From positions 12,926 through 76,925 of the IMG/VR virus record IMGVR_UViG_3300037502_003155: a stretch of DNA of 64,000 bases; one strand, given 5' to 3'. Position 1 is the first letter of the stretch; each line of letters begins with the position of its first letter. The notes beneath the pieces were generated by a model. The model made no database searches. It was not told the DNA's origin and saw only the letters and a program-made list of their open reading frames with translations. Below, in pieces: positions 806 through 55,475 of the stretch. The stretch is from a virus. The position numbers and the translations under genes were made by a program.

Positions 806-1518
806 TGTACACCAGCAATTGCGCGTATTGCGGCACTCAATTTACGTCTTTACGACCTAGAGAATGTTGCCAGCGGTCTTGCTCAGGCAAACTCAATCAT
901 CAACGACTAGGAACCGACTGGTCTCAAGATGCAGAGTTGTGGTTAGAACAAAAAGCAGGAACTATGCCTCTACCAAATTTAACCGCAGCCTACAACCGGT
1001 CGGCAGTTCAATATGGCTGGGCTAATAGAAGCTTAAATTCCATAAAGCTTAAGCTCAAGCGGCTAAATCTTAGCCGCAAGTGTACAGAGAACAACATCAC
1101 TCGCTATGAGTTGGCCAGGGTGCTAGAGATTTCCCCTGACAAGGTACGTGTCTGGACAAAGAATGGATTGCCGTATCGCAAAGTAGCCCGCAATCAAACC
1201 GCCATAAAAATCAGCGATGTTCGTGCGTTTTTGCTGAACAATCCTAGTCGGGCTTTTGGCGTATCTTTTGATGGGCTGTCGTGGCTGATTGGTGAAATTG
1301 ATGCAACCGCTATTTGCGAAGCAGACCATTCTCGGAGAGGACATCGTCGCCCCGTTGTAAATCTGGATACGGGAAAGGTTTACCCCGGCGTTAAGGCAGC
1401 AGCCCGAGAAAACTATCTTACTCACAACTGTATTGCACAATCAATTCAGAGGGGAGGCCGGAGTGGCGGTTGCAGATGGGCCTACATTGATCAAATGGAG
1501 GAACAACGTCATGCCTAA
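805..1518 (+). CDS. DNA-binding protein (N-terminal Cys cluster, HTH, C-terminal NUMOD1)
   Basis: CAYC...CCQRSC at the N-terminus; ITRYELARVLEISPDKVRVW HTH-like segment; C-terminal RPVVNLDTGKVYPGVKAAA...CRWAY paralogous to 117..479. Confidence 0.65.
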   Translation: MYTSNCAYCGTQFTSLRPRECCQRSCSGKLNHQRLGTDWSQDAELWLEQKAGTMPLPNLTAAYNRSAVQYGWANRSLNSIKLKLKRLNLSRKCTENNITRYELARVLEISPDKVRVWTKNGLPYRKVARNQTAIKISDVRAFLLNNPSRAFGVSFDGLSWLIGEIDATAICEADHSRRGHRRPVVNLDTGKVYPGVKAAARENYLTHNCIAQSIQRGGRSGGCRWAYIDQMEEQRHA

Positions 1519-1789
1519 GGCCATAAAGCCCGTAGCCAACCTTGACGAACTCCTAGATGCCACAGTAGATCTCGAGTCCGGCCATCCCATTGAGGCCGTC
1601 TTGGCCCAGCACGGTATCCCAGCACGGCATAGCGCCTACGATGTGGTGCGCCGATACCAAAAGAATTTGGCCTACTACGAAGGGTCTACAACCACCGTGT
1701 ATCAAACGATGTGGCTCAATGCCTGCAAGGAACTAGAGCCTGTAATTAAGGCCATTGCAAAGCATCTGGAGGAACAGCACCATGACTAA
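1511..1789 (+). CDS. hypothetical protein
   Basis: GGAGG RBS before ATG 1511; overlaps its neighbours. Confidence 0.6.
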   Translation: MPKAIKPVANLDELLDATVDLESGHPIEAVLAQHGIPARHSAYDVVRRYQKNLAYYEGSTTTVYQTMWLNACKELEPVIKAIAKHLEEQHHD

Positions 1790-1985
1790 AGGCTTTGCAC
1801 CACCTCGCCCATGGCAATGCCGGATCTACCAAGGTCAGCGCATCCACACCAGCCTGAAGATCGGCACGGTGGACGGCACCACCATCACCCGCAGCAATGC
1901 CCTGAAAACAGCCAAGATCGTCACAGCATTGTTGCAAGAGCCGACCAATACCGACTACCAATGTGGCCTAGCCCGACAAAAAAGG

Positions 1986-2171
1986 ATGAACGCCATCATA
2001 CATCAAATTGCCTACGCTGCCCTTACCTTGGGGGTTGCCGTCGCCCTCGCTTTGCCCGTGGAAGCCACCACACGCCGAGGGTGTGATGACGTAACTGATC
2101 CCCTGTGCGTGCCCTTTGGGGCTACGGAGGGCGATGAACAGGGCAGTGCCCAGCGGGGTACTGGCCGCTAG
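1986..2171 (+). CDS. PatX/PatS-like secreted peptide (signal peptide plus C-terminal RGTGR)
   Basis: MNAIIHQIAYAALTLGVAVALALPVEA is signal-peptide-like and the protein ends QRGTGR-stop. The frame is also open from ATG 1782, so the true start is uncertain. Confidence 0.6.
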   Translation: MNAIIHQIAYAALTLGVAVALALPVEATTRRGCDDVTDPLCVPFGATEGDEQGSAQRGTGR

Positions 2172-2238
2172 GCTCGATGCACGTAACCGGGAGTCGTGCC
2201 CCGGTGCTGCCAGCCCACAGCGTTAGCGAGGCAGATCA

Positions 2239-2490
2239 ATGACCACCGATGTTTTATCAGTCAGGACAATGGACATTGATGTTAAAAGCCGATGGATTGC
2301 TGGAGGTGTTTTAGATGACGGGCAAACGATTGCCTACCCTGCGGTTTATAGCCGAGAAGAGGCTTGGGCCTTCGTCGCGGAACACTACCCAGGGCGTTGC
2401 CTAGTCCGCCATATTAGGGCCACCGTTGACAACATGCCAGCGCAAATGAGCGCTGGCGAAATACCACTGTTTTTTAGTTCACTGGATTAA
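2239..2490 (+). CDS. hypothetical protein
   Basis: GAGG RBS; flanked by a direct repeat (2209-2231 and 2500-2521). Confidence 0.55.
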   Translation: MTTDVLSVRTMDIDVKSRWIAGGVLDDGQTIAYPAVYSREEAWAFVAEHYPGRCLVRHIRATVDNMPAQMSAGEIPLFFSSLD

Positions 2491-2555
2491 CCGCCCGCCG
2501 CCAGCCCACAGCGTAGCGAGGGCATACCGATGAATAAACCAACAAGGACAAACGT

Positions 2556-3356
2556 ATGAGCGACGATATTGTTTTGCATGAAGGGGCCGGAGTATCCGGC
2601 GGGCTTCAGATCCGCACCATGGACGACCTTAGCCGAGTGGCCAAAATGTTGGCTATGTCCAAGTTTTTCAGCGATGCCGCTGACGCTGCTCAGTGTGGCG
2701 TCAAGGTGCTGGCAGGTGCCGAGATGGGCTTTGGTGCCTTTGCCTCGATGACGGGCATCAACATCATCAAGGGGAAGCCCAGCATCGGGGCTAACCTGAT
2801 GGCGGCGGCGGTGAAGCGCCACCCTAATTACAACTATCGGGTTTTGGAGCATACCCCCGAAGTGTGCCGCATTGCATTCTATGAACGTTGGGACGGCAAG
2901 TTGGAGCAGGTAGGGGTAAGCGAATTTACCCTAGCTGACGCCAAAAAAGCAGGCACTCAAAATCTAGAAAAGTTTGCCCGCAACATGCTTTTTGCCCGCG
3001 CCATGAGCAACGGTGTGCGGTGGTATTGCCCCGATGTGTTTGACTCCCCCGTGTACACCCCTGAGGAGTTAGGGGCCAATGTAGACGGAGAGGGCAATTA
3101 TGTAGATGTGCAGGTATTGGAACCGGAAACGGCCCCGACGCCCCTGCGAGTGGCAGAGAACCACCTCGAGGAGCAGGTGGCCGAAATCATCCGCTACGGC
3201 ATGGAGAACGGGCTAGAGGTAGACCGAATCCGCGCACTATGCCGCAAGAGCAACCTGCCCGACACCAAAACGGGCTACACCAACTCCGCCCAGGTAACGA
3301 CCCTGGCGCAACTGATTGAAGACGAAATTAACCTAGCCACCACGGAGGCCGCTTAA
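2556..3356 (+). CDS. RecT-family single-strand annealing protein
   Basis: Motifs KVLAGAEMGFGAFASMTGINIIKGKP and RNMLFARAMSNGVRWYCPDV...YTPEEL; adjacent to ssb. Confidence 0.75.
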   Translation: MSDDIVLHEGAGVSGGLQIRTMDDLSRVAKMLAMSKFFSDAADAAQCGVKVLAGAEMGFGAFASMTGINIIKGKPSIGANLMAAAVKRHPNYNYRVLEHTPEVCRIAFYERWDGKLEQVGVSEFTLADAKKAGTQNLEKFARNMLFARAMSNGVRWYCPDVFDSPVYTPEELGANVDGEGNYVDVQVLEPETAPTPLRVAENHLEEQVAEIIRYGMENGLEVDRIRALCRKSNLPDTKTGYTNSAQVTTLAQLIEDEINLATTEAA

Positions 3357-3358
3357 CC

Positions 3359-3754
3359 ATGCCCGCAGAAGCTACTAACTACAACAGTGTTCAATTGATC
3401 GGCAACCTGGGGGCAGACCCCGAGGTTAAATTCTTCGACTCTGGCTCCCGTGTTGCAGAATGCCGAATTGCCGTTTATGCGGGGAAAGACAAGTCTACGG
3501 GAGAGAATAAGCCCTCGATGTGGTTCACGGTCAAGGCTTGGAATGCCTGCGCCGATGACTTGATGGACTTACGCAAGGGGGATCGACTCCAAGTAGTTGA
3601 GGGGCAACTTTCCCAGGACGCTTGGCAAGATCGGGAAACCGGAGCCAAGCGTAGCAAGGACTATGTGTTGGCCTGGAAAGTAGCCAAGGTTGAACGGCAA
3701 CCACGGGAAGCCCAACCCGCCGCCGCTACCAACTACGACGACATCCCTTTCTAA
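3359..3754 (+). CDS. ssb: single-stranded DNA-binding protein
   Basis: NSVQLIGNLGADPE OB-fold start; acidic DDIPF C-terminal tail. Confidence 0.95.
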   Translation: MPAEATNYNSVQLIGNLGADPEVKFFDSGSRVAECRIAVYAGKDKSTGENKPSMWFTVKAWNACADDLMDLRKGDRLQVVEGQLSQDAWQDRETGAKRSKDYVLAWKVAKVERQPREAQPAAATNYDDIPF

Positions 3755-3825
3755 CCCCACACCCTAGCCCCACACCAGCCCCGGCACTCGCTGGGGCTTT
3801 GCTGTTTACCCAACCAAGGGACACT

Positions 3826-4509
3826 ATGCTAGTCGCGATTGTTGACGTTGAAACCACAGGATTGAACCCCGAAACCGATGCAGTGATTGAGGTTGCCGCC
3901 ATCCTGTATAGCACTGAACACCGAGCCATCTTGCAGCAGGCTTCTACGCTGTTGCCCGTGGCGGCGAACCCTGCCGAGACGGTGAATGGAATATCTCTGG
4001 ACATGGTTAATGCAAGCAACAACCATGCCTGGGACTCCCAAGATTCGATCACGGATGCCATCGTTGAAATGATGGAGGATAGCGCCTACATTGTTGCCTT
4101 CAATTCTGATTTTGATCAGTCGTTCATTGAAACCATGGGCGACACGGCTTGGCAAGTAGAAACACCCTGGGCAGACGCCGCTGCCATCACCTACCCCCGT
4201 ATGGGCCACAAGCGCGATCTGGTGAACATTGCCCTCGCCAACGGTATCCCCATTGTCAATGCCCACCGGGCCTTAGACGATTGCAGAATCCTTGCTGAGC
4301 TACTGAGCAAGGTGCCTGACCTGGATGAGCAGCTAGCTAGAGCGGCACGGTCTAAGGCGACGGTTAAGGCGCTGGTGAGCTACAACCAAAGAGACCTCGC
4401 CAAGGCGGCTGGCTTTATATGGGATGCCATTGTACCCCGTGCATGGGCTAAACGGATGCCCCTTGAGGATGCGGAAGCACTGCCCTTCCCCGTGGAGGTG
4501 GTAGGCTAA
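3826..4509 (+). CDS. DEDDh 3'-5' exonuclease (DnaQ-like)
   Basis: Exo motifs DVETTG, AFNSDFD and HRALDDC. Confidence 0.9.
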   Translation: MLVAIVDVETTGLNPETDAVIEVAAILYSTEHRAILQQASTLLPVAANPAETVNGISLDMVNASNNHAWDSQDSITDAIVEMMEDSAYIVAFNSDFDQSFIETMGDTAWQVETPWADAAAITYPRMGHKRDLVNIALANGIPIVNAHRALDDCRILAELLSKVPDLDEQLARAARSKATVKALVSYNQRDLAKAAGFIWDAIVPRAWAKRMPLEDAEALPFPVEVVG

Positions 4510-4532
4510 GCCCAACAACAACCACACACAAT

Positions 4533-4567
4533 AAACCCCCAGTACCGCAAGGCGCTGGGGGCTTTTT
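4533..4567. terminator. bidirectional intrinsic terminator
   Basis: aaacccccagt...gctgggggcttttt hairpin between convergent units. Confidence 0.7.
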
Positions 4568-4972
4568 GTTGGGGTGGGGTTAGGGTTCAAAAACTGTTAC
4601 TGGGAATGCGCCTCTTCCTGGTTTGTGGCAAAAATGAAGCCGTGCCATCCTCATGCATATCAAAAACTTCCGGCAAATCATCCATCACCCAACCCTCCTA
4701 GGATCAATCGTTTTTATCTCATCCTTAACCCCCAACCGCCGCCACTTGGCCCGCTCCAATGCCGCCGCCTTTTGGCTATAACCCTCGGCGGTAACATGGC
4801 CATCGGGCGAAACCATCACCACCCGGAACACGTCGCCTAGTTCCGTTGCTAGGGCCATGAGTGCCTGGGCCGCATCATCGCCTAGGTGTCGGGTGTTCAG
4901 CCCCGCTTGGGCCTCAGAAACGCAGGCGGGGTTTTTACGTGCCTGGGTTAGTCCCCTCCCCAGGGCTTCTAT

Positions 4973-5551
4973 CTAGGCTAGTGCGGCGATCATCTCGGCT
5001 TTGGATAGGTGGCGACCTTGCCCGTGGGCATTCCGCCATTTCACCCCAGCGGCCTGGCAACGGCAGCGCAATTCGGCACTGGTCACGGGCTTGGGTGCCT
5101 CCACCTTGACCACAGCGACGGCCACGGGTTGGCTGATGGTAGCGGCCATGTCGGGGTAGTGCTGGTTGGTGGCAGGGCTGAAGGGGTCAGATTCGACCAT
5201 TTTCCCGGCGTCGGGAATATGGTCGGCGGGGAGGCAGGCGGCAACCTCCAGCCGTTCGGGCAAGCTCGGCAGGTCGTCCTCGAGGGCGATGGCGGGAAGC
5301 TGCTGGGCAGCGATGAACCATTCCCAGGCTGCGCGGGTCAGCATCCCGGCCCCGATGGCGTAGCACATCACCACGCCGATGATGGTGCCGATGTCCTCGT
5401 AGCGGCGGACGGCTTCAGGGCCGATAAAGGTGTTGACGTACCAGTGATAGGTGGCCTCGGTCTTGGCGGTGGCGACTTCAGAGAACTGATACCAGCGCTC
5501 GGCGGCGAGGGCGATATTGTCGATAGCGTTAATAGGTGCGGCGTAAGTCAT
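4973..5551 (-). CDS. hypothetical protein with a TM segment and a C-terminal Rho-N/HeH-like helix pair
   Basis: GGAG RBS before MTYAAP; C-terminal SAELRCRCQAAG...HLSKAEMIAAL. Confidence 0.6.
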   Translation of the reverse strand: MTYAAPINAIDNIALAAERWYQFSEVATAKTEATYHWYVNTFIGPEAVRRYEDIGTIIGVVMCYAIGAGMLTRAAWEWFIAAQQLPAIALEDDLPSLPERLEVAACLPADHIPDAGKMVESDPFSPATNQHYPDMAATISQPVAVAVVKVEAPKPVTSAELRCRCQAAGVKWRNAHGQGRHLSKAEMIAALA

Positions 5552-5749
5552 CGATTTCAAAGCTCCAAAATCTTGTGGTGAGGTGGCCCCTGTAGCGGTG
5601 GGGCCTACCTTATTGGCGTGGCTGCTGCTATTCCAGCCTGTCACCCATGCAACGCTTGGGGGGCGTTCCCGCTGCTGTTCCGGGACTGTCACCCTATTTG
5701 TATTCCGCCGGGGGGCGGCTGGTAGGCCGTGTTGCCTGCCGATGTAATA

Positions 5750-6372: not shown

Positions 6373-6678
6373 TTATGCGGGCACTTTTGGGATTTCTACC
6401 ACAGTCCCCACGGGGGGGGCGGTGCGGCTGTGGCGGGAAGTGACGACAGCACCGCCTAGACGAGGGTCGAAGGTGCCGACCCATTGAGTGGTGTGGTAAT
6501 GATGGGCAAGGGCGGCGTAGAGCCACACAGGCCCACGTCCAGAGATGACTACGCCTTTGGTGCCGTCCACGTCGGGCGGGTTGAGGGTAGCAAGGTCTGC
6601 GGGTTCGCAGACCCCGCCGGGGATCTCGAACTCAAGCAGGGTCGCCCCTGCGAAGGGAGTGGTAGTGAACTGAATCAT
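6373..6678 (-). CDS. csx3: CRISPR-associated ring nuclease Csx3/Crn3 homologue
   Basis: 101 aa; family signature GVVISGRGPVWLYAALAHHYH...WVGTFDPRLGGAVVTSRH; GGAGG RBS. Confidence 0.88.
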   Translation of the reverse strand: MIQFTTTPFAGATLLEFEIPGGVCEPADLATLNPPDVDGTKGVVISGRGPVWLYAALAHHYHTTQWVGTFDPRLGGAVVTSRHSRTAPPVGTVVEIPKVPA

Positions 6679-6740
6679 GCTGCCTCCTTGGGCTGGTTGG
6701 GTGTGCAGGGCTTTACCTGCGGGGCTTGAGAGCGGTGACA

Positions 6741-7208
6741 TTAACGACGCTTGACGGGCCGGGGCTTGCCACTGGGGAGCGACTTGAACTCAGCCCCGAC
6801 CCATTGGCCGAGTTCGTCCAGCACCCACTGAGGGATCGGGATAGGTTCCCCTTTGTAGGCCGCTTTTGTGCGACCCAAGGCAGGGTTCCGGCGGCGGATA
6901 AATCCGCGCTCCAGAGTTTTTTGGGTTTTGTCCTCAATGACCGCGACCATTTTCGCGGGTACGCGAAAATCTTTGTAAACATTTTCGTCAATAGACCATC
7001 TTTTCATGTCAATAAACAACCCGTCTTTGATTACCCGGGTTTTTACTTGGTCTACTTCAACCAGATCGGTTTTTTTGCCGATCCGGATAAAAGTTTCCCA
7101 GTCCTCTCGACTAGGAACGACGGTGCCCTCAGCAAAGAACCATTCTGGGCCCCCATCCGAGGTTCCAGGCATAAACCCCCGGTAATGTCTCAACGCATCA
7201 GTTGCCAT
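6741..7208 (-). CDS. hypothetical protein (candidate anti-defence)
   Basis: 155 aa ORF co-oriented with csx3 and bounded by repeats. Confidence 0.65.
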   Translation of the reverse strand: MATDALRHYRGFMPGTSDGGPEWFFAEGTVVPSREDWETFIRIGKKTDLVEVDQVKTRVIKDGLFIDMKRWSIDENVYKDFRVPAKMVAVIEDKTQKTLERGFIRRRNPALGRTKAAYKGEPIPIPQWVLDELGQWVGAEFKSLPSGKPRPVKRR

Positions 7209-13711: not shown

Positions 13712-14284
13712 CTAGTCTTCTAGCACTCTCTTAACCTTGCGGGCTACGTCAGAGCAAATGCCCTCACACTGATCGGCCCCCCAAGCCTGGGTATCTTCAA
13801 TCGTTCGGCCCGACTTAATCTCTGCCAACGTTAGGGCGGCTAACTCCAGTTCATCAAGGCCGTCCCTAGTTGACTTTACCTTGCGCGATGCCTGAAGCTG
13901 CTTGGCTGTCTGCCCAAATAGCCCCACGTTCACCGCATTGGTGCATCGGGCATATTCATGGGGGTAAGCAACGCCGTGATTCTTGAGCGTGTCAGTAAGC
14001 TGGTATCGCGCCACCTTGCCGTCAAGGCGTGCCTTAATCTGCTTGTCTGACCAACCTAAGCGACTGTATTTGCGAACGGCATGGTCAAGTGCTTTATCTG
14101 GGTCGGCAATGATGCCAGCAGCCCACCGCCGAAACTCAGCCCCACGCTTACCAGGGCACAGCATGAGGATTTGGTACATCCCCTCTTCATTGGTAACGGG
14201 GGTTTCCCGTTGCCCACGACCGGGGAATTTGAAGTCCGAACAAAAGTCGCTAACCTCAGGATTCTGCTTTTCAAGTCGCTGCCG
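13712..14284 (-). pseudogene. 5'-truncated phage antirepressor-like (BRO/KilA-type) gene
   Basis: The frame reads RQRLEKQNPEV...KFPGRGQRETPV...QILMLCPGKRGAEFRRWAA with no start codon upstream; it abuts the integrase end. Confidence 0.6.
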
Positions 14285-15347
14285 CTACATGAGGGATGCT
14301 AGCCCCCTGCTCCAGCAGGTGACTGCCTAGGCTATGCCGTGCGGAGTAGGGCACTCGGTCAACGCCCGCCGCTTTGCAGATCCGTTTCCATGTGCGTTGG
14401 GAAAAATCGCAATCATTGATCGGGTTGCCCCGTGGGGTTAAAAATATCAAGTCGTCCGGCTTAGCCCCGGCGGGCCTCCGGGCGTTCAGCATCGCCACCA
14501 TGTCAGCGTGCAGTGTCAGTGTCCTCACCTTGTTGGTCTTGGTGCCCTTTCTTTGCCGTGCCCAGCCAGCCGCCTTGCCATCGGGGGCTCGGGCGAGGGC
14601 TTCAGCAATGGTTGCCACACCGCGCTCTAGGTCAATGTGTCGCCACCTCAAGCCCGCTGCCTCGCTAACTCGCAGCCCCAAGTAGAACAGGGTCATTACA
14701 AAATCATGGTAGGGCTCGGTGCAGGGATCAGCCTTGGTGGCATCCAAGAAAGCCCGGATCTGCCCAGCAGTTAGCGGTGCCCGTTTTGGGTTGGGTTGGC
14801 GGCTGGCTTTGATGCGTGGCACGTCTGTCCACGGGTTGGACTCTAAGTGCCCCCGCTGCATGGCCCATTGACCAAAACTTCGCAGCCTCGATAGATTCTG
14901 GTTCGCCACAATGCCCGACTGAGAGGCCCGTAGGCGTTCGAGAAAGGCCGCTGCCTCTTTGGTGGTCACAATGTCCTTTCCCCATCGCTGTAGATGCCCT
15001 AGCAGTGGCTTATAGCTAGCGGTAATGGTTTGGCCGCTGGTGCCGTCCTCCCTGCGATGCTCGATAAATTGCTCGAACAGATCGGCGGTGGTTAGCCGGG
15101 GTGGCTCTGGCTCCGGCTCTGGCTGGGGTTTGTATTTGGCTAGCGTTGGGTCAAACTGCTCACGGGCAATATCAGCCTGAATCTCGGTGGCTAGTATCTC
15201 GGCACGATGGCGGTTGAGGGGGCTATCGGGTAGGCCAATGGCAAGCTGATACGGTCGCCCCTGGTGTGTCCACCTCAGGCGTAGCATTTCATTTCGCGTT
15301 GACACTGACACTGCCCCCCGTTTGTTACGGCGGTTTTTCCTGGGCAT
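14271..15347 (-). pseudogene. int: tyrosine integrase with arm-binding domain, C-terminally truncated
   Basis: LRLRW...G...QLAIGLPD arm domain; GLRVSE and YSARH motifs; the ORF stops before the LG[H/N]...Y catalytic segment. Confidence 0.8.
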
Positions 15348-55305: not shown

Positions 55306-55475
55306 TACAGCGTTTTGTCGCCCACGACAAATAACGACAGATACCTCTATCCTACCCTAGGCTATGGGCAGAGCGTGGATGGTTGATCCTCTCTCCATTA
55401 GCTAATTTCGCAAACTCTAAACCGTGGGCAAAGGGCTAGGCAACAGTAGGGGCGTACCCTGATCAGGTCAGTTTT

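What the first reader, a model, noticed from the sequence alone, without database searches (positions are those of the whole stretch)
1986..2171. Phage-encoded PatX/PatS-like secreted peptide ending in RGTGR
Seen: a 61-aa ORF with a signal-peptide-like N-terminus (AALTLGVAVALALPVEA), a short acidic linker and a terminal QRGTGR-stop, inside the early operon. Established: RG(S/T)GR is the HetR-inhibiting motif of PatS, HetN and PatX in filamentous cyanobacteria, and PatX has this signal-peptide plus C-terminal motif layout. Inference: the phage may export a mimic of the host patterning signal to manipulate HetR-controlled cell states along the filament, or use it as an arbitrium-like signal between infected cells.
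Basis: partly seen in the sequence, partly recalled or inferred. Interest (0 to 1): 0.88.

Follow-up and report, generated by a model that had tools for sequence, protein, structure and literature searches.

The report
Cyanophage exported peptide ending RG[ST]GR
A widespread freshwater cyanobacterial virus carries a small, conserved gene for a probably exported peptide that ends in the five residues filamentous cyanobacteria use to switch off their developmental regulator HetR, so the virus may tamper with host cell-fate signalling; neither the host nor binding has been shown.

Summary
Window 1986-2171 encodes a 61-aa peptide with a hydrophobic N-terminal helix, a two-Cys core, an acidic linker and a C-terminal QRGTGR-stop.

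It is a real gene. Eight stand-alone homologues (57-59 aa) and four metagenome loci keep it. All end in QRG[ST]GR-stop except one with RCSGR. The tail shows 3-4 synonymous changes but only T/S replacement, while the adjacent linker varies freely.

The alternative start at 1782 comes from a rearrangement. This strain carries a real 2.9-kb inversion (1979-4886, between 7-bp inverted repeats) that fuses the peptide in frame to half of another early gene. Relatives place the peptide gene first in the SSAP-SSB-exonuclease module.

The virus is a probably temperate cyanophage. Five genes match phages of filamentous cyanobacteria best. Two of those relatives carry PatS-like ERGSGR or CDERGSGR ORFs.

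The peptide does not match the PatX profile (NF047413). The host, and therefore hetR, is unidentified; the 55% GC is a caveat.

My best reading (about 0.5) is a viral analogue of the PatS/PatX HetR inhibitor. This scan has flagged similar phage RGSGR peptides before on other DNA. I found no published description.

The parts
1986..2171 (+). Peptide gene (61 aa from ATG 1986, stop included). It is the window's copy of a conserved stand-alone 57-62 aa gene.
   Evidence: pN/pS 0.25-0.45 against relatives
1986..2066 (+). Residues 1-27: hydrophobic N-terminal helix ending L-P-V-E-A. It is a candidate Sec signal peptide with cleavage after A27, or alternatively a membrane anchor.
   Evidence: AlphaFold helix 2-22, pLDDT 78-87; hydropathy and charge counts; SignalP not available
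2079..2123 (+). Residues 32-46: two-Cys core (GCDD...PLCVPFGA). Twelve of its 15 columns are invariant in all nine aligned sequences.
   Evidence: residues 28-46 (which contain this core) show 3 synonymous and 0 replacement changes against L005
2124..2147 (+). Residues 47-54: variable acidic linker.
   Evidence: 0.5 synonymous and 5.5 replacement changes against L005
2148..2168 (+). Residues 55-61: conserved C-terminal tail AQRGTGR. RGTGR is at 2154-2168 and is followed directly by TAG.
   Evidence: 3-4 synonymous changes against one T/S replacement; predicted disordered, pLDDT < 50
1782..1985 (+). First 65 codons of a conserved 131-134 aa early gene, cut by the inversion, then three junction codons (QKR), fused in frame to the peptide ORF.
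   Evidence: homologues P0001, P0003 and P0006 share only this part and then continue differently
1972..1978 (+). Left 7-bp repeat CCCGACA at the inversion breakpoint.
   Evidence: BLAST overlaps; joint 1978/4886 on opposite strands with 7 shared letters in run X3
4887..4893 (-). Right 7-bp repeat CCCGACA (read on the minus strand) at the inversion breakpoint.
4685..4886 (-). Displaced C-terminal half of the same 131-134 aa early gene.
   Evidence: translation matches the second half of P0001; L003 carries the intact gene
4894..4972 (-). Native upstream intergenic region of the peptide gene, now separated from it by the inversion.
   Evidence: L005, L002 and L004 join this sequence directly to the peptide gene
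4973..5692 (-). 239-aa gene of unknown function. In relatives it lies directly upstream of the peptide gene on the same strand.
   Evidence: no Pfam or PHROG match
2239..4509 (+). Downstream genes of the module: 83-aa ORF (2239-2490), RecT-like annealing protein (2556-3356), SSB (3359-3754) and 3'-5' exonuclease (3799-4509).
   Evidence: same order after the peptide gene in L003

Best explanation
The gene encodes a small pre-pro-peptide of a probably temperate freshwater cyanophage lineage. Its working part is the constrained C-terminal hexapeptide QRG[ST]GR, which copies the HetR-inhibiting signal of PatS (ERGSGR), HetN and PatX (HRGTGR).

Proposed mechanism:
1. The hydrophobic N-terminus takes the peptide across or into the cytoplasmic membrane.
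2. Signal peptidase cuts after V-E-A, leaving a 34-residue acidic peptide.
3. A host periplasmic protease such as PatP trims it to the terminal penta- or hexapeptide. No C-terminal trimming is needed, because the motif already ends the chain, as in PatS.
4. The peptide binds the hood domain of HetR in the infected cell or its neighbours and blocks HetR DNA binding.
5. This holds cells in the vegetative, virus-productive state, or blocks HetR-dependent death and fragmentation.

Shown: the gene, its conservation, selection on the tail, the cyanophage identity of the virus, and RGSGR-bearing ORFs in related phages.

Inferred: export, processing, HetR as the target, and a HetR-bearing filamentous host.

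In this particular strain an inversion makes the peptide the C-terminal part of a 129-aa fusion. The basic RQKR flank would favour the same outward orientation.
For: 1. It is a real, selected gene. Eight homologues and four loci exist. pN/pS is 0.25-0.45. The tail AQRG[ST]GR has 3-4 of about 6.5 synonymous sites changed but only a T/S replacement, whereas the adjacent linker has 5.5 replacements.
2. The only variation allowed in the motif is S/T, which is exactly the PatS/PatX alternation. The codons are ACT versus AGC, two base changes.
3. The motif sits at the extreme C-terminus in every member and on a predicted disordered tail.
4. The layout matches PatX. PatX is small, needs Sec export for activity, and HRGTGR binds HetR at 88 nM and abolishes DNA binding (PMC12756182).
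5. The virus is a cyanophage whose closest isolates are mostly phages of filamentous hosts:
- portal: Aphanizomenon phage CL131, 38.6%
- capsid: Planktothrix phage PaV-LD, 37%
- terminase: Cylindrospermopsis phage Cr-LKS4, 40%
- 1319-aa tail protein: CL131, 37%
- ribonucleotide reductase: Cr-LKS4, 62.7%
- Csx3: matches only Allocoleopsis and Nostoc plasmids
6. Those relatives carry the motif with PatS- or PatX-like flanks:
- an unannotated 18-aa ORF ending ERGSGR-stop in Cr-LKS4
- CDERGSGR in CL131 gp103
- HRGSGRR in CL131 gp091
About 0.2 chance hits are expected per genome.
7. Chance in this genome is 0.05 for the motif before a stop in any frame.
Against: - The host is not identified, so the presence of hetR is unknown. 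The virus itself has no hetR.
- GC is 55%, against 38.5% for Cr-LKS4 and 64% for the picocyanobacterial phage S-LBS1. Freshwater picocyanobacteria, which lack hetR and are common in the lake metagenomes that hold this virus, remain a plausible host.
- The RecT-like gene is closest to S-LBS1.
- There is no similarity to the PatX profile NF047413.
- The conserved two-Cys core has no counterpart in what is described for PatS or PatX.
- The residue before the motif is Q, not E or H.
- The n-region lacks Lys or Arg, and two Arg residues follow the helix. Export is therefore not assured.
- One homologue has RCSGR.
- All homologues are close (64-95% identity), so conservation is measured over a short evolutionary distance.
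Confidence: 0.5

Rival explanations
1. It is a phage peptide with a function unrelated to HetR, and the likeness to RG[ST]GR is coincidence. It could be a secreted pro-peptide whose C-terminal hexapeptide is the phage's own quorum signal (arbitrium or Phr-like, with QRGTGR and QRGSGR as two dialects). It could instead be a small periplasmic or membrane protein for superinfection exclusion. The host may be a unicellular picocyanobacterium.
For: - The architecture (signal sequence, variable linker, conserved C-terminal hexapeptide at the chain end, temperate phage with an integrase at 14271-15347) is also that of AimP.
- The S/T variants follow lineages.
- GC is 55%, and the virus is prevalent in lake-water metagenomes of 16 studies.
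- The RecT-like gene is closest to the Synechococcus phage S-LBS1.
- The strongly conserved two-Cys core suggests that the mature peptide itself, not only its tail, has a partner.
- Across a scan of many genomes, a few chance RG[ST]GR ends are expected.
Against: - No AimR-like or other receptor gene lies next to it. The neighbours have no TPR or HTH-receptor family match.
- The coincidence would have to fall on a cyanophage whose relatives also carry PatS-like RGSGR ORFs.
- Heavy palindrome avoidance and a Csx3 ring nuclease point to a host rich in restriction and type III CRISPR systems. From general knowledge, that fits non-picocyanobacterial hosts better.
Confidence: 0.25
2. HetR is the target but the route differs. 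The peptide is not exported. The short uncharged N-terminus flips out and the helix anchors the protein in the membrane with the tail in the cytoplasm (N-out, C-in). The free C-terminal RG[ST]GR then sequesters HetR only inside the infected cell or lysogen, more like membrane-associated HetN than like PatX.
For: - The positive-inside rule fits: no Lys or Arg before the helix, and Arg-Arg three residues after it in nearly all members.
- HetR is cytoplasmic.
- The tail needs no processing to expose a free C-terminal RG[ST]GR.
Against: - The V-E-A motif at -3 to -1 fits signal peptidase I.
- The net charge after the helix is negative (-1 over the first 18 residues in most members).
- Two conserved Cys suggest a disulfide in an oxidising compartment.
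- In the window strain the fusion adds RQKR before the helix, which would force the opposite orientation, yet the peptide sequence is fully kept.
Confidence: 0.15
3. In this particular strain the copy is a crippled remnant. The inversion cut it from its own upstream region and the shared start codon is lost, so the window's ORF is no longer expressed as a peptide even if the family is functional elsewhere.
For: - The inversion is fixed in the source sample at 260x depth and in a second sample.
- The conserved ATG with its AAGGA is replaced by ATA with a 3-nt gap.
- The 131-134 aa early gene is split.
Against: - The fusion is in frame.
- Residues 6-61 are identical to L002.
- ATG 1986 remains, and the strain is abundant in two samples.
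Confidence: 0.05

Closest known systems
PatX (Asl2332 of Nostoc/Anabaena PCC 7120; NCBIfam NF047413)
   Same: Both are small proteins (PatX is given as 56 aa; the UniProt entry has 77) with a hydrophobic Sec-type N-terminus and an RG[ST]GR motif. For PatX, export is required for activity, and HRGTGR binds HetR and blocks DNA binding (PMC12756182). RGTGR is identical in the window's copy.
   Different: - There is no profile match.
- It is encoded by a virus, not next to hetR.
- The motif ends the chain, whereas in PatX further residues follow (RGTGR-R-S, read from the published primer).
- Q replaces H before the motif.
- It has a conserved two-Cys core.
PatS (Anabaena PCC 7120, 17 aa, ends ERGSGR)
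   Same: The motif lies at the extreme C-terminus, so the active penta- or hexapeptide needs only N-terminal trimming. Half of the homologues carry RGSGR exactly.
   Different: It is 57-62 aa rather than 13-17 aa. It has a signal-like N-terminus that PatS lacks. Q replaces E before the motif.
AimP of the arbitrium system (SPbeta-group Bacillus phages)
   Same: Both are temperate-phage-encoded short pre-pro-peptides with a signal sequence, and the conserved hexapeptide is the C-terminal end. Lineage-specific variants exist.
   Different: There is no adjacent AimR-type receptor and no AimX-like element. The host would be a diderm cyanobacterium. There is no sequence similarity.
RGSGR-bearing ORFs of isolated cyanophages, seen here: Cr-LKS4 18-aa ORF upstream of g73; CL131 gp103 and gp091
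   Same: They are virus-encoded carriers of the same motif, in phages that share portal, terminase, tail and RNR genes with this virus.
   Different: The protein scaffolds are unrelated: an 18-aa PatS-like mini-ORF, and 145-aa and 132-aa cytoplasmic-looking proteins. None has the signal-like N-terminus plus Cys core. They have not been tested either.

Membership tests
PatX (NF047413 heterocyst_PatX) | Match to the family profile above its cut-off (30 bits) | tested here: not met
   No hit at E <= 10 for any of the nine family members, nor in six frames of the whole virus record.
PatX (NF047413 heterocyst_PatX) | RG[ST]GR pentapeptide | tested here: met
   RGTGR at 2154-2168. RG[ST]GR is present in eight of the nine aligned sequences (the window's plus eight homologues) and in all four loci.
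PatX (NF047413 heterocyst_PatX) | Sec/SPI signal peptide and no transmembrane domain (the criterion used in PMC12756182) | tested here: inconclusive
   Helix at residues 2-22, hydropathy maximum 2.27, V-E-A before T28, but no basic n-region. SignalP and DeepTMHMM were not available.
PatX (NF047413 heterocyst_PatX) | Occurs in a hetR-bearing genome, typically directly upstream of hetR | tested here: not met
   No hetR (PF03574) in the virus record. The neighbours are recombination genes. The host genome is unknown, so hetR in the host is not testable here.
PatS | Very short ORF (13-17 aa) ending in RGSGR | tested here: not met
   Length is 57-62 aa. The C-terminal position of the motif is met.
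HetR-inhibitory peptide (functional class) | Binds the HetR hood domain and abolishes DNA binding | not testable with these tools
ITC and EMSA are needed.
Arbitrium AimP | Encoded next to its receptor AimR in a temperate phage | tested here: not met
   No TPR or AimR-like family in the neighbouring genes, in the window or in L002-L005. An integrase is present elsewhere.
Arbitrium AimP | Signal sequence plus mature hexapeptide at the C-terminal end of a short pro-peptide | tested here: inconclusive
   The layout is compatible. Processing is unknown.

The most novel reading that the evidence does not exclude
A cosmopolitan freshwater temperate cyanophage secretes its own version of the host's diffusible patterning inhibitor. 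One infected or lysogenic cell would then reprogramme HetR-controlled fates (heterocyst formation, necridia, fragmentation) in neighbouring cells of the filament. This would be a virus-encoded morphogen acting beyond the infected cell. The RGTGR and RGSGR lineages might also let the phage sense infected kin.
Probability: 0.3. Interest if true: 0.9.

Novelty: new variant of a known kind. Interest (0 to 1): 0.72.

Why it matters
HetR with its RG[ST]GR inhibitors is the textbook bacterial example of activator-inhibitor patterning. It also underlies nitrogen fixation in bloom-forming cyanobacteria.

A virus that makes and perhaps exports the inhibitor would be the first case of a phage hijacking a multicellular patterning signal. 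That would be comparable to viral mimicry of host cytokines.

It would link phage infection to heterocyst frequency, filament fragmentation and bloom nitrogen budgets.

The peptide is short and synthesisable, and the assays exist already (ITC, EMSA and heterocyst suppression, as used for PatX). The idea is therefore directly testable.

Together with the PatS-like ORFs seen here in Cr-LKS4 and CL131, and earlier notes of this scan, it suggests a recurrent viral strategy built on unrelated protein scaffolds.

Tried and rejected
Family and homology searches that found nothing useful:
- Pfam, PHROGs and NCBIfam gave no family for the peptide or for the 129-aa fusion. The weak hits (PhnV, DUF5133) are noise from the hydrophobic segment.
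- The ESM Atlas gave a best score of 0.77 with unannotated clusters, which is not informative.
- Scans of virus contigs with the 132-aa protein, the peptide alignment and the capsid found no relatives.
- tblastn of the peptide against isolated phages found nothing.
- A search for longer, fused forms found none.
- The one genome-collection hit (L001, a Dongiaceae MAG) is spurious. It is a frame overlapping a real gene on the other strand.

Host identification failed:
- No cyanobacterial genome handle could be obtained.
- HIP1 count is 0, but this is uninformative because its core CGATCG is avoided altogether.
- There is no tRNA and no Rfam family in the record.
- The integrase is only 28% identical to a Leptolyngbya plasmid gene.

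Expression and regulation:
- No RNA holder was listed among the sequencing runs.
- Raw-read run X21 did not cover the region.
- Promoter and terminator scans around the gene found nothing.
- The hairpins flanking the gene are no more stable than shuffled sequence.

Structure:
- The AlphaFold model has mean pLDDT 62. Only the N-terminal helix is confident.

Among the motif hits in related phages, CL131 at 101322 (antisense in the DnaD gene) and S-CBS4 at 55361 (no start codon) were rejected as spurious.

As a result, no HetR-peptide model was made, and the contigs of most homologues could not be inspected.

Full report
**What is in the sequence.** Window 1986-2171 (+) is an open frame of 61 codons. 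It has a hydrophobic N-terminus, a short region with two Cys, an acidic stretch, and QRGTGR directly before TAG. The same frame is open back to ATG 1782, which overlaps the stop of the preceding ORF and gives 129 aa. No Pfam, PHROG or NCBIfam family matches either form.

The window is bases 12926-76925 of a 76.9-kb IMG/VR virus record rated 91% complete. The neighbours are phage genes:
- a RecT-like annealing protein, SSB and a 3'-5' exonuclease just downstream;
- a tyrosine integrase, portal, MuF, capsid, cement protein and terminase elsewhere.

**The start at 1782 comes from an inversion.**
- Homologues of the 129-aa reading fall into two unrelated sets.
- One set, of 131-134 aa, shares only residues 1-65. 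It then continues with a sequence that in the window lies on the minus strand at 4685-4886.
- The other set consists of stand-alone proteins of 57-59 aa that match only residues 73-129.
- Four metagenome contigs (L002-L005) show the usual order. A 239-aa gene (window 4973-5692, minus strand) comes first, then about 90 nt, then the peptide gene on the same strand. After it come an 82-aa ORF, an annealing protein, SSB and the exonuclease.
- The intact 132-aa gene converges on this module (L003).
- The window therefore carries an inversion of 1979-4886 between 7-bp inverted repeats CCCGACA (1972-1978 and 4887-4893).
- The inversion is not an assembly error. An independent Logan contig of the probable source run spans 1400-5107 without a difference at 260x depth. 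A second run of that study bridges both junctions.
- A lake-water run from another study shows the two opposite-strand joints of the usual orientation.
- No fused form exists in the protein collection.
- The start codon shared by relatives (MMTQ or MLHQ, 9-12 nt after AAGGA) is ATA in the window, with a 3-nt gap. Here the peptide must be made from ATG 1986 or as the tail of the fusion.
- The fusion is in frame and puts RQKR before the hydrophobic segment.

**The peptide gene is real and its tail is constrained.**
- The nine aligned sequences (the window's plus eight homologues, alignment A1) are 64-95% identical to the window's.
- Invariant parts are the end of the hydrophobic segment (P-V-x-A), the core G-C-D-D ... 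P-L-C-V-P-F-G-A, and the tail A-Q-R-G-[ST]-G-R. One Logan-derived variant has RCSGR. Every member stops right after the motif.
- At the DNA level the window and L005 differ at 15 synonymous and 14 replacement positions, giving pN/pS of 0.34.
- By segment: the region containing the core (residues 28-46) has 3 synonymous and 0 replacement changes. The eight-residue linker has 0.5 and 5.5. The seven-residue tail has 3 synonymous changes and 1 replacement.
- That one replacement is T to S, through two base changes (ACT to AGC). The Gly and Arg codons after it changed silently.
- The motif occurs once in six frames of the whole record. Shuffles give 1.47 occurrences anywhere and 0.05 before a stop.
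- The gene keeps its place in front of three different, unrelated annealing-protein genes in L003, L004 and L002/L005. It therefore travels with the 239-aa gene and the head of the module, not with a particular recombinase.

**Export is plausible but unproven.**
- AlphaFold predicts a helix at residues 2-22 and no confident structure after it. The last 15 residues have pLDDT below 50.
- The 15-residue hydropathy maximum is 2.27. V-E-A precedes T28. The 34-residue remainder has net charge -2.
- Against a classical signal peptide: there is no Lys or Arg before the helix, and Arg-Arg follows it. An N-out, C-in anchor with a cytoplasmic tail is therefore a fair alternative.
- SignalP was not available.

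**What the virus is.** The best matches among 50,697 isolated phage records are:

| Gene | Best match(es) | Identity |
|---|---|---|
| Portal | Aphanizomenon phage CL131; then Synechococcus phage S-CBS4 and Planktothrix phage PaV-LD | 38.6% |
| Capsid | PaV-LD | 37% |
| Terminase | Cylindrospermopsis phage Cr-LKS4; Nodularia phages | 40%; 37% |
| 1319-aa tail protein | CL131, PaV-LD, Nodularia phages | 37% (CL131) |
| Class II ribonucleotide reductase | Cr-LKS4 | 62.7% |
| RecT-like gene | Lake Synechococcus phage S-LBS1 | 44.7% |

- A Csx3 ring nuclease (6373-6741, Pfam E = 1e-26) finds only two plasmid homologues. Both are in filamentous cyanobacteria, Allocoleopsis PCC 7113 and Nostoc edaphicum.
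- The record avoids 6-bp palindromes to an unusual degree. Nine have no copy where 15-32 are expected.
- Near-identical DNA is held by lake and freshwater metagenomes of 16 studies.
- So this is a widespread, probably temperate freshwater cyanophage.
- The host could not be named. GC is 55%, far from Cr-LKS4 (38.5%) and below S-LBS1 (64%). That fits neither Nostocales nor high-GC picocyanobacteria.
- The GC leaves two host candidates open. One is mid-GC filamentous Synechococcales, Leptolyngbyales or Prochlorothrix-like hosts, which would have hetR. The other is mid-GC freshwater picocyanobacteria, which would not. This last step rests on my general knowledge, not on a tool result.

**Comparison with the known system.**
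- RGSGR (PatS, HetN) and RG[ST]GR (PatX) inhibit HetR (PMC7761841).
- Xu et al. 2025 (PMC12756182) showed that PatX has a functional Sec signal, must be exported to act, and is cut by the periplasmic peptidase PatP, which is conserved across cyanobacteria.
- They also showed that HRGTGR binds HetR with Kd 88 nM and abolishes binding to the hetP promoter.
- patX and hetR co-occur mainly in Nostocales and Oscillatoriales. In non-heterocystous filaments the pair is proposed to control necridia and fragmentation.
- The viral peptide shares PatX's size class, hydrophobic N-terminus and motif. It shares with PatS the position of the motif at the chain end.
- It is not a PatX homologue by profile. 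Its Cys core has no counterpart in what is described for PatS or PatX.
- I file it as something that probably works like PatS/PatX, not as a member of either family.

**Support from related phages.** I scanned five isolated relatives for the motif and checked each hit against the annotation.
- Cr-LKS4 has an unannotated 18-aa ORF, MIKISQYQNQEIERGSGR. Its stop abuts the ATG of g73 (TAAATG). This is PatS-like in length and ends in the PatS hexapeptide.
- CL131 gp103 carries CDERGSGR, the PatS octapeptide, nine residues from its end.
- CL131 gp091 begins MRTKSHRGSGRRK.
- Two other hits were spurious. PaV-LD and Nodularia phage 2AV2 have none.
- At 39% GC I calculate about 0.2 chance occurrences per 100-kb genome in six frames.
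- Both host genera form heterocysts. This makes viral carriage of the HetR-inhibitor motif look recurrent in this phage group, and it raises the prior for the present peptide.
- Earlier notes of this scan report similar cases on other DNA. I treat them as leads only.
- Full-text searches found no paper describing a phage-encoded PatS or PatX-like peptide.

The mimicry reading is the best single explanation (about 0.5, plus 0.15 for a non-exported variant of it). It hinges on an unidentified host and an untested binding.

A HetR-unrelated phage peptide remains at about 0.25.

Noticed in passing
L026:1484-1540 (minus strand; Cylindrospermopsis phage Cr-LKS4, OQ625504.1, about 71683-71739): An unannotated 18-aa ORF, MIKISQYQNQEIERGSGR, whose stop abuts the start codon of g73 (TAAATG). 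It is PatS-like in length and ends in the exact PatS hexapeptide, in a phage of a heterocyst-forming host.
   Followed up: partly
L027:6557-6994 and L027:617-1015 (Aphanizomenon phage CL131, MG209611.1, gp103 and gp091): gp103 (145 aa) carries CDERGSGR, identical to the PatS C-terminal octapeptide, nine residues before its end. gp091 begins MRTKSHRGSGRRK, which resembles the PatX HRGTGRR.
   Followed up: partly
window 1979-4886: A real, strain-specific 2.9-kb inversion between 7-bp inverted repeats splits a conserved 131-134 aa early gene and turns the whole recombination module around. It is fixed at 260x in the source run and absent from lake-water relatives. The module it inverts encodes the RecT-like protein and exonuclease that could promote such short-homology events.
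   Followed up: yes
whole record (window plus L007): Extreme avoidance of 6-bp palindromes. TACGTA, ACGCGT, CACGTG, CAGCTG, CGATCG, GAGCTC, GCATGC, CCGCGG and CGGCCG have 0 copies where 15-32 are expected, and six more have 1 copy. This suggests a host with many type II restriction systems.
   Followed up: partly
window 6373-6741 (-): A stand-alone Csx3/Crn3 ring nuclease (Pfam E = 1e-26) with no cas genes nearby, a candidate anti-type III CRISPR gene. Its only plasmid homologues are in Allocoleopsis PCC 7113 and Nostoc edaphicum.
   Followed up: partly
window 2206-2242 and 2497-2533: A 37-nt direct repeat (73% identical) ends at the start codons of the 83-aa ORF and of the RecT-like gene. It may be a shared translation or transcription initiation element of the module.
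   Followed up: no
L002:265-1251, L004:2021-2728, L005:796-1713, against window 2556-3356: Relatives carry three unrelated annealing-protein genes (266-aa RecT-like, 235-aa, 305/328-aa) at the same position behind the peptide gene. This is cassette exchange within an otherwise conserved module.
   Followed up: partly
L003:2676-3299 (-): A 207-aa coiled-coil-like ORF of low GC is inserted between the exonuclease gene and the 132-aa gene in one relative. It is absent from the window.
   Followed up: no
protein P0013: One homologue, from a Logan assembly, has RCSGR instead of RGSGR and further changes in the core. It is either a sequencing error or a natural loss-of-motif variant. It would serve as a negative control in binding assays.
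   Followed up: no
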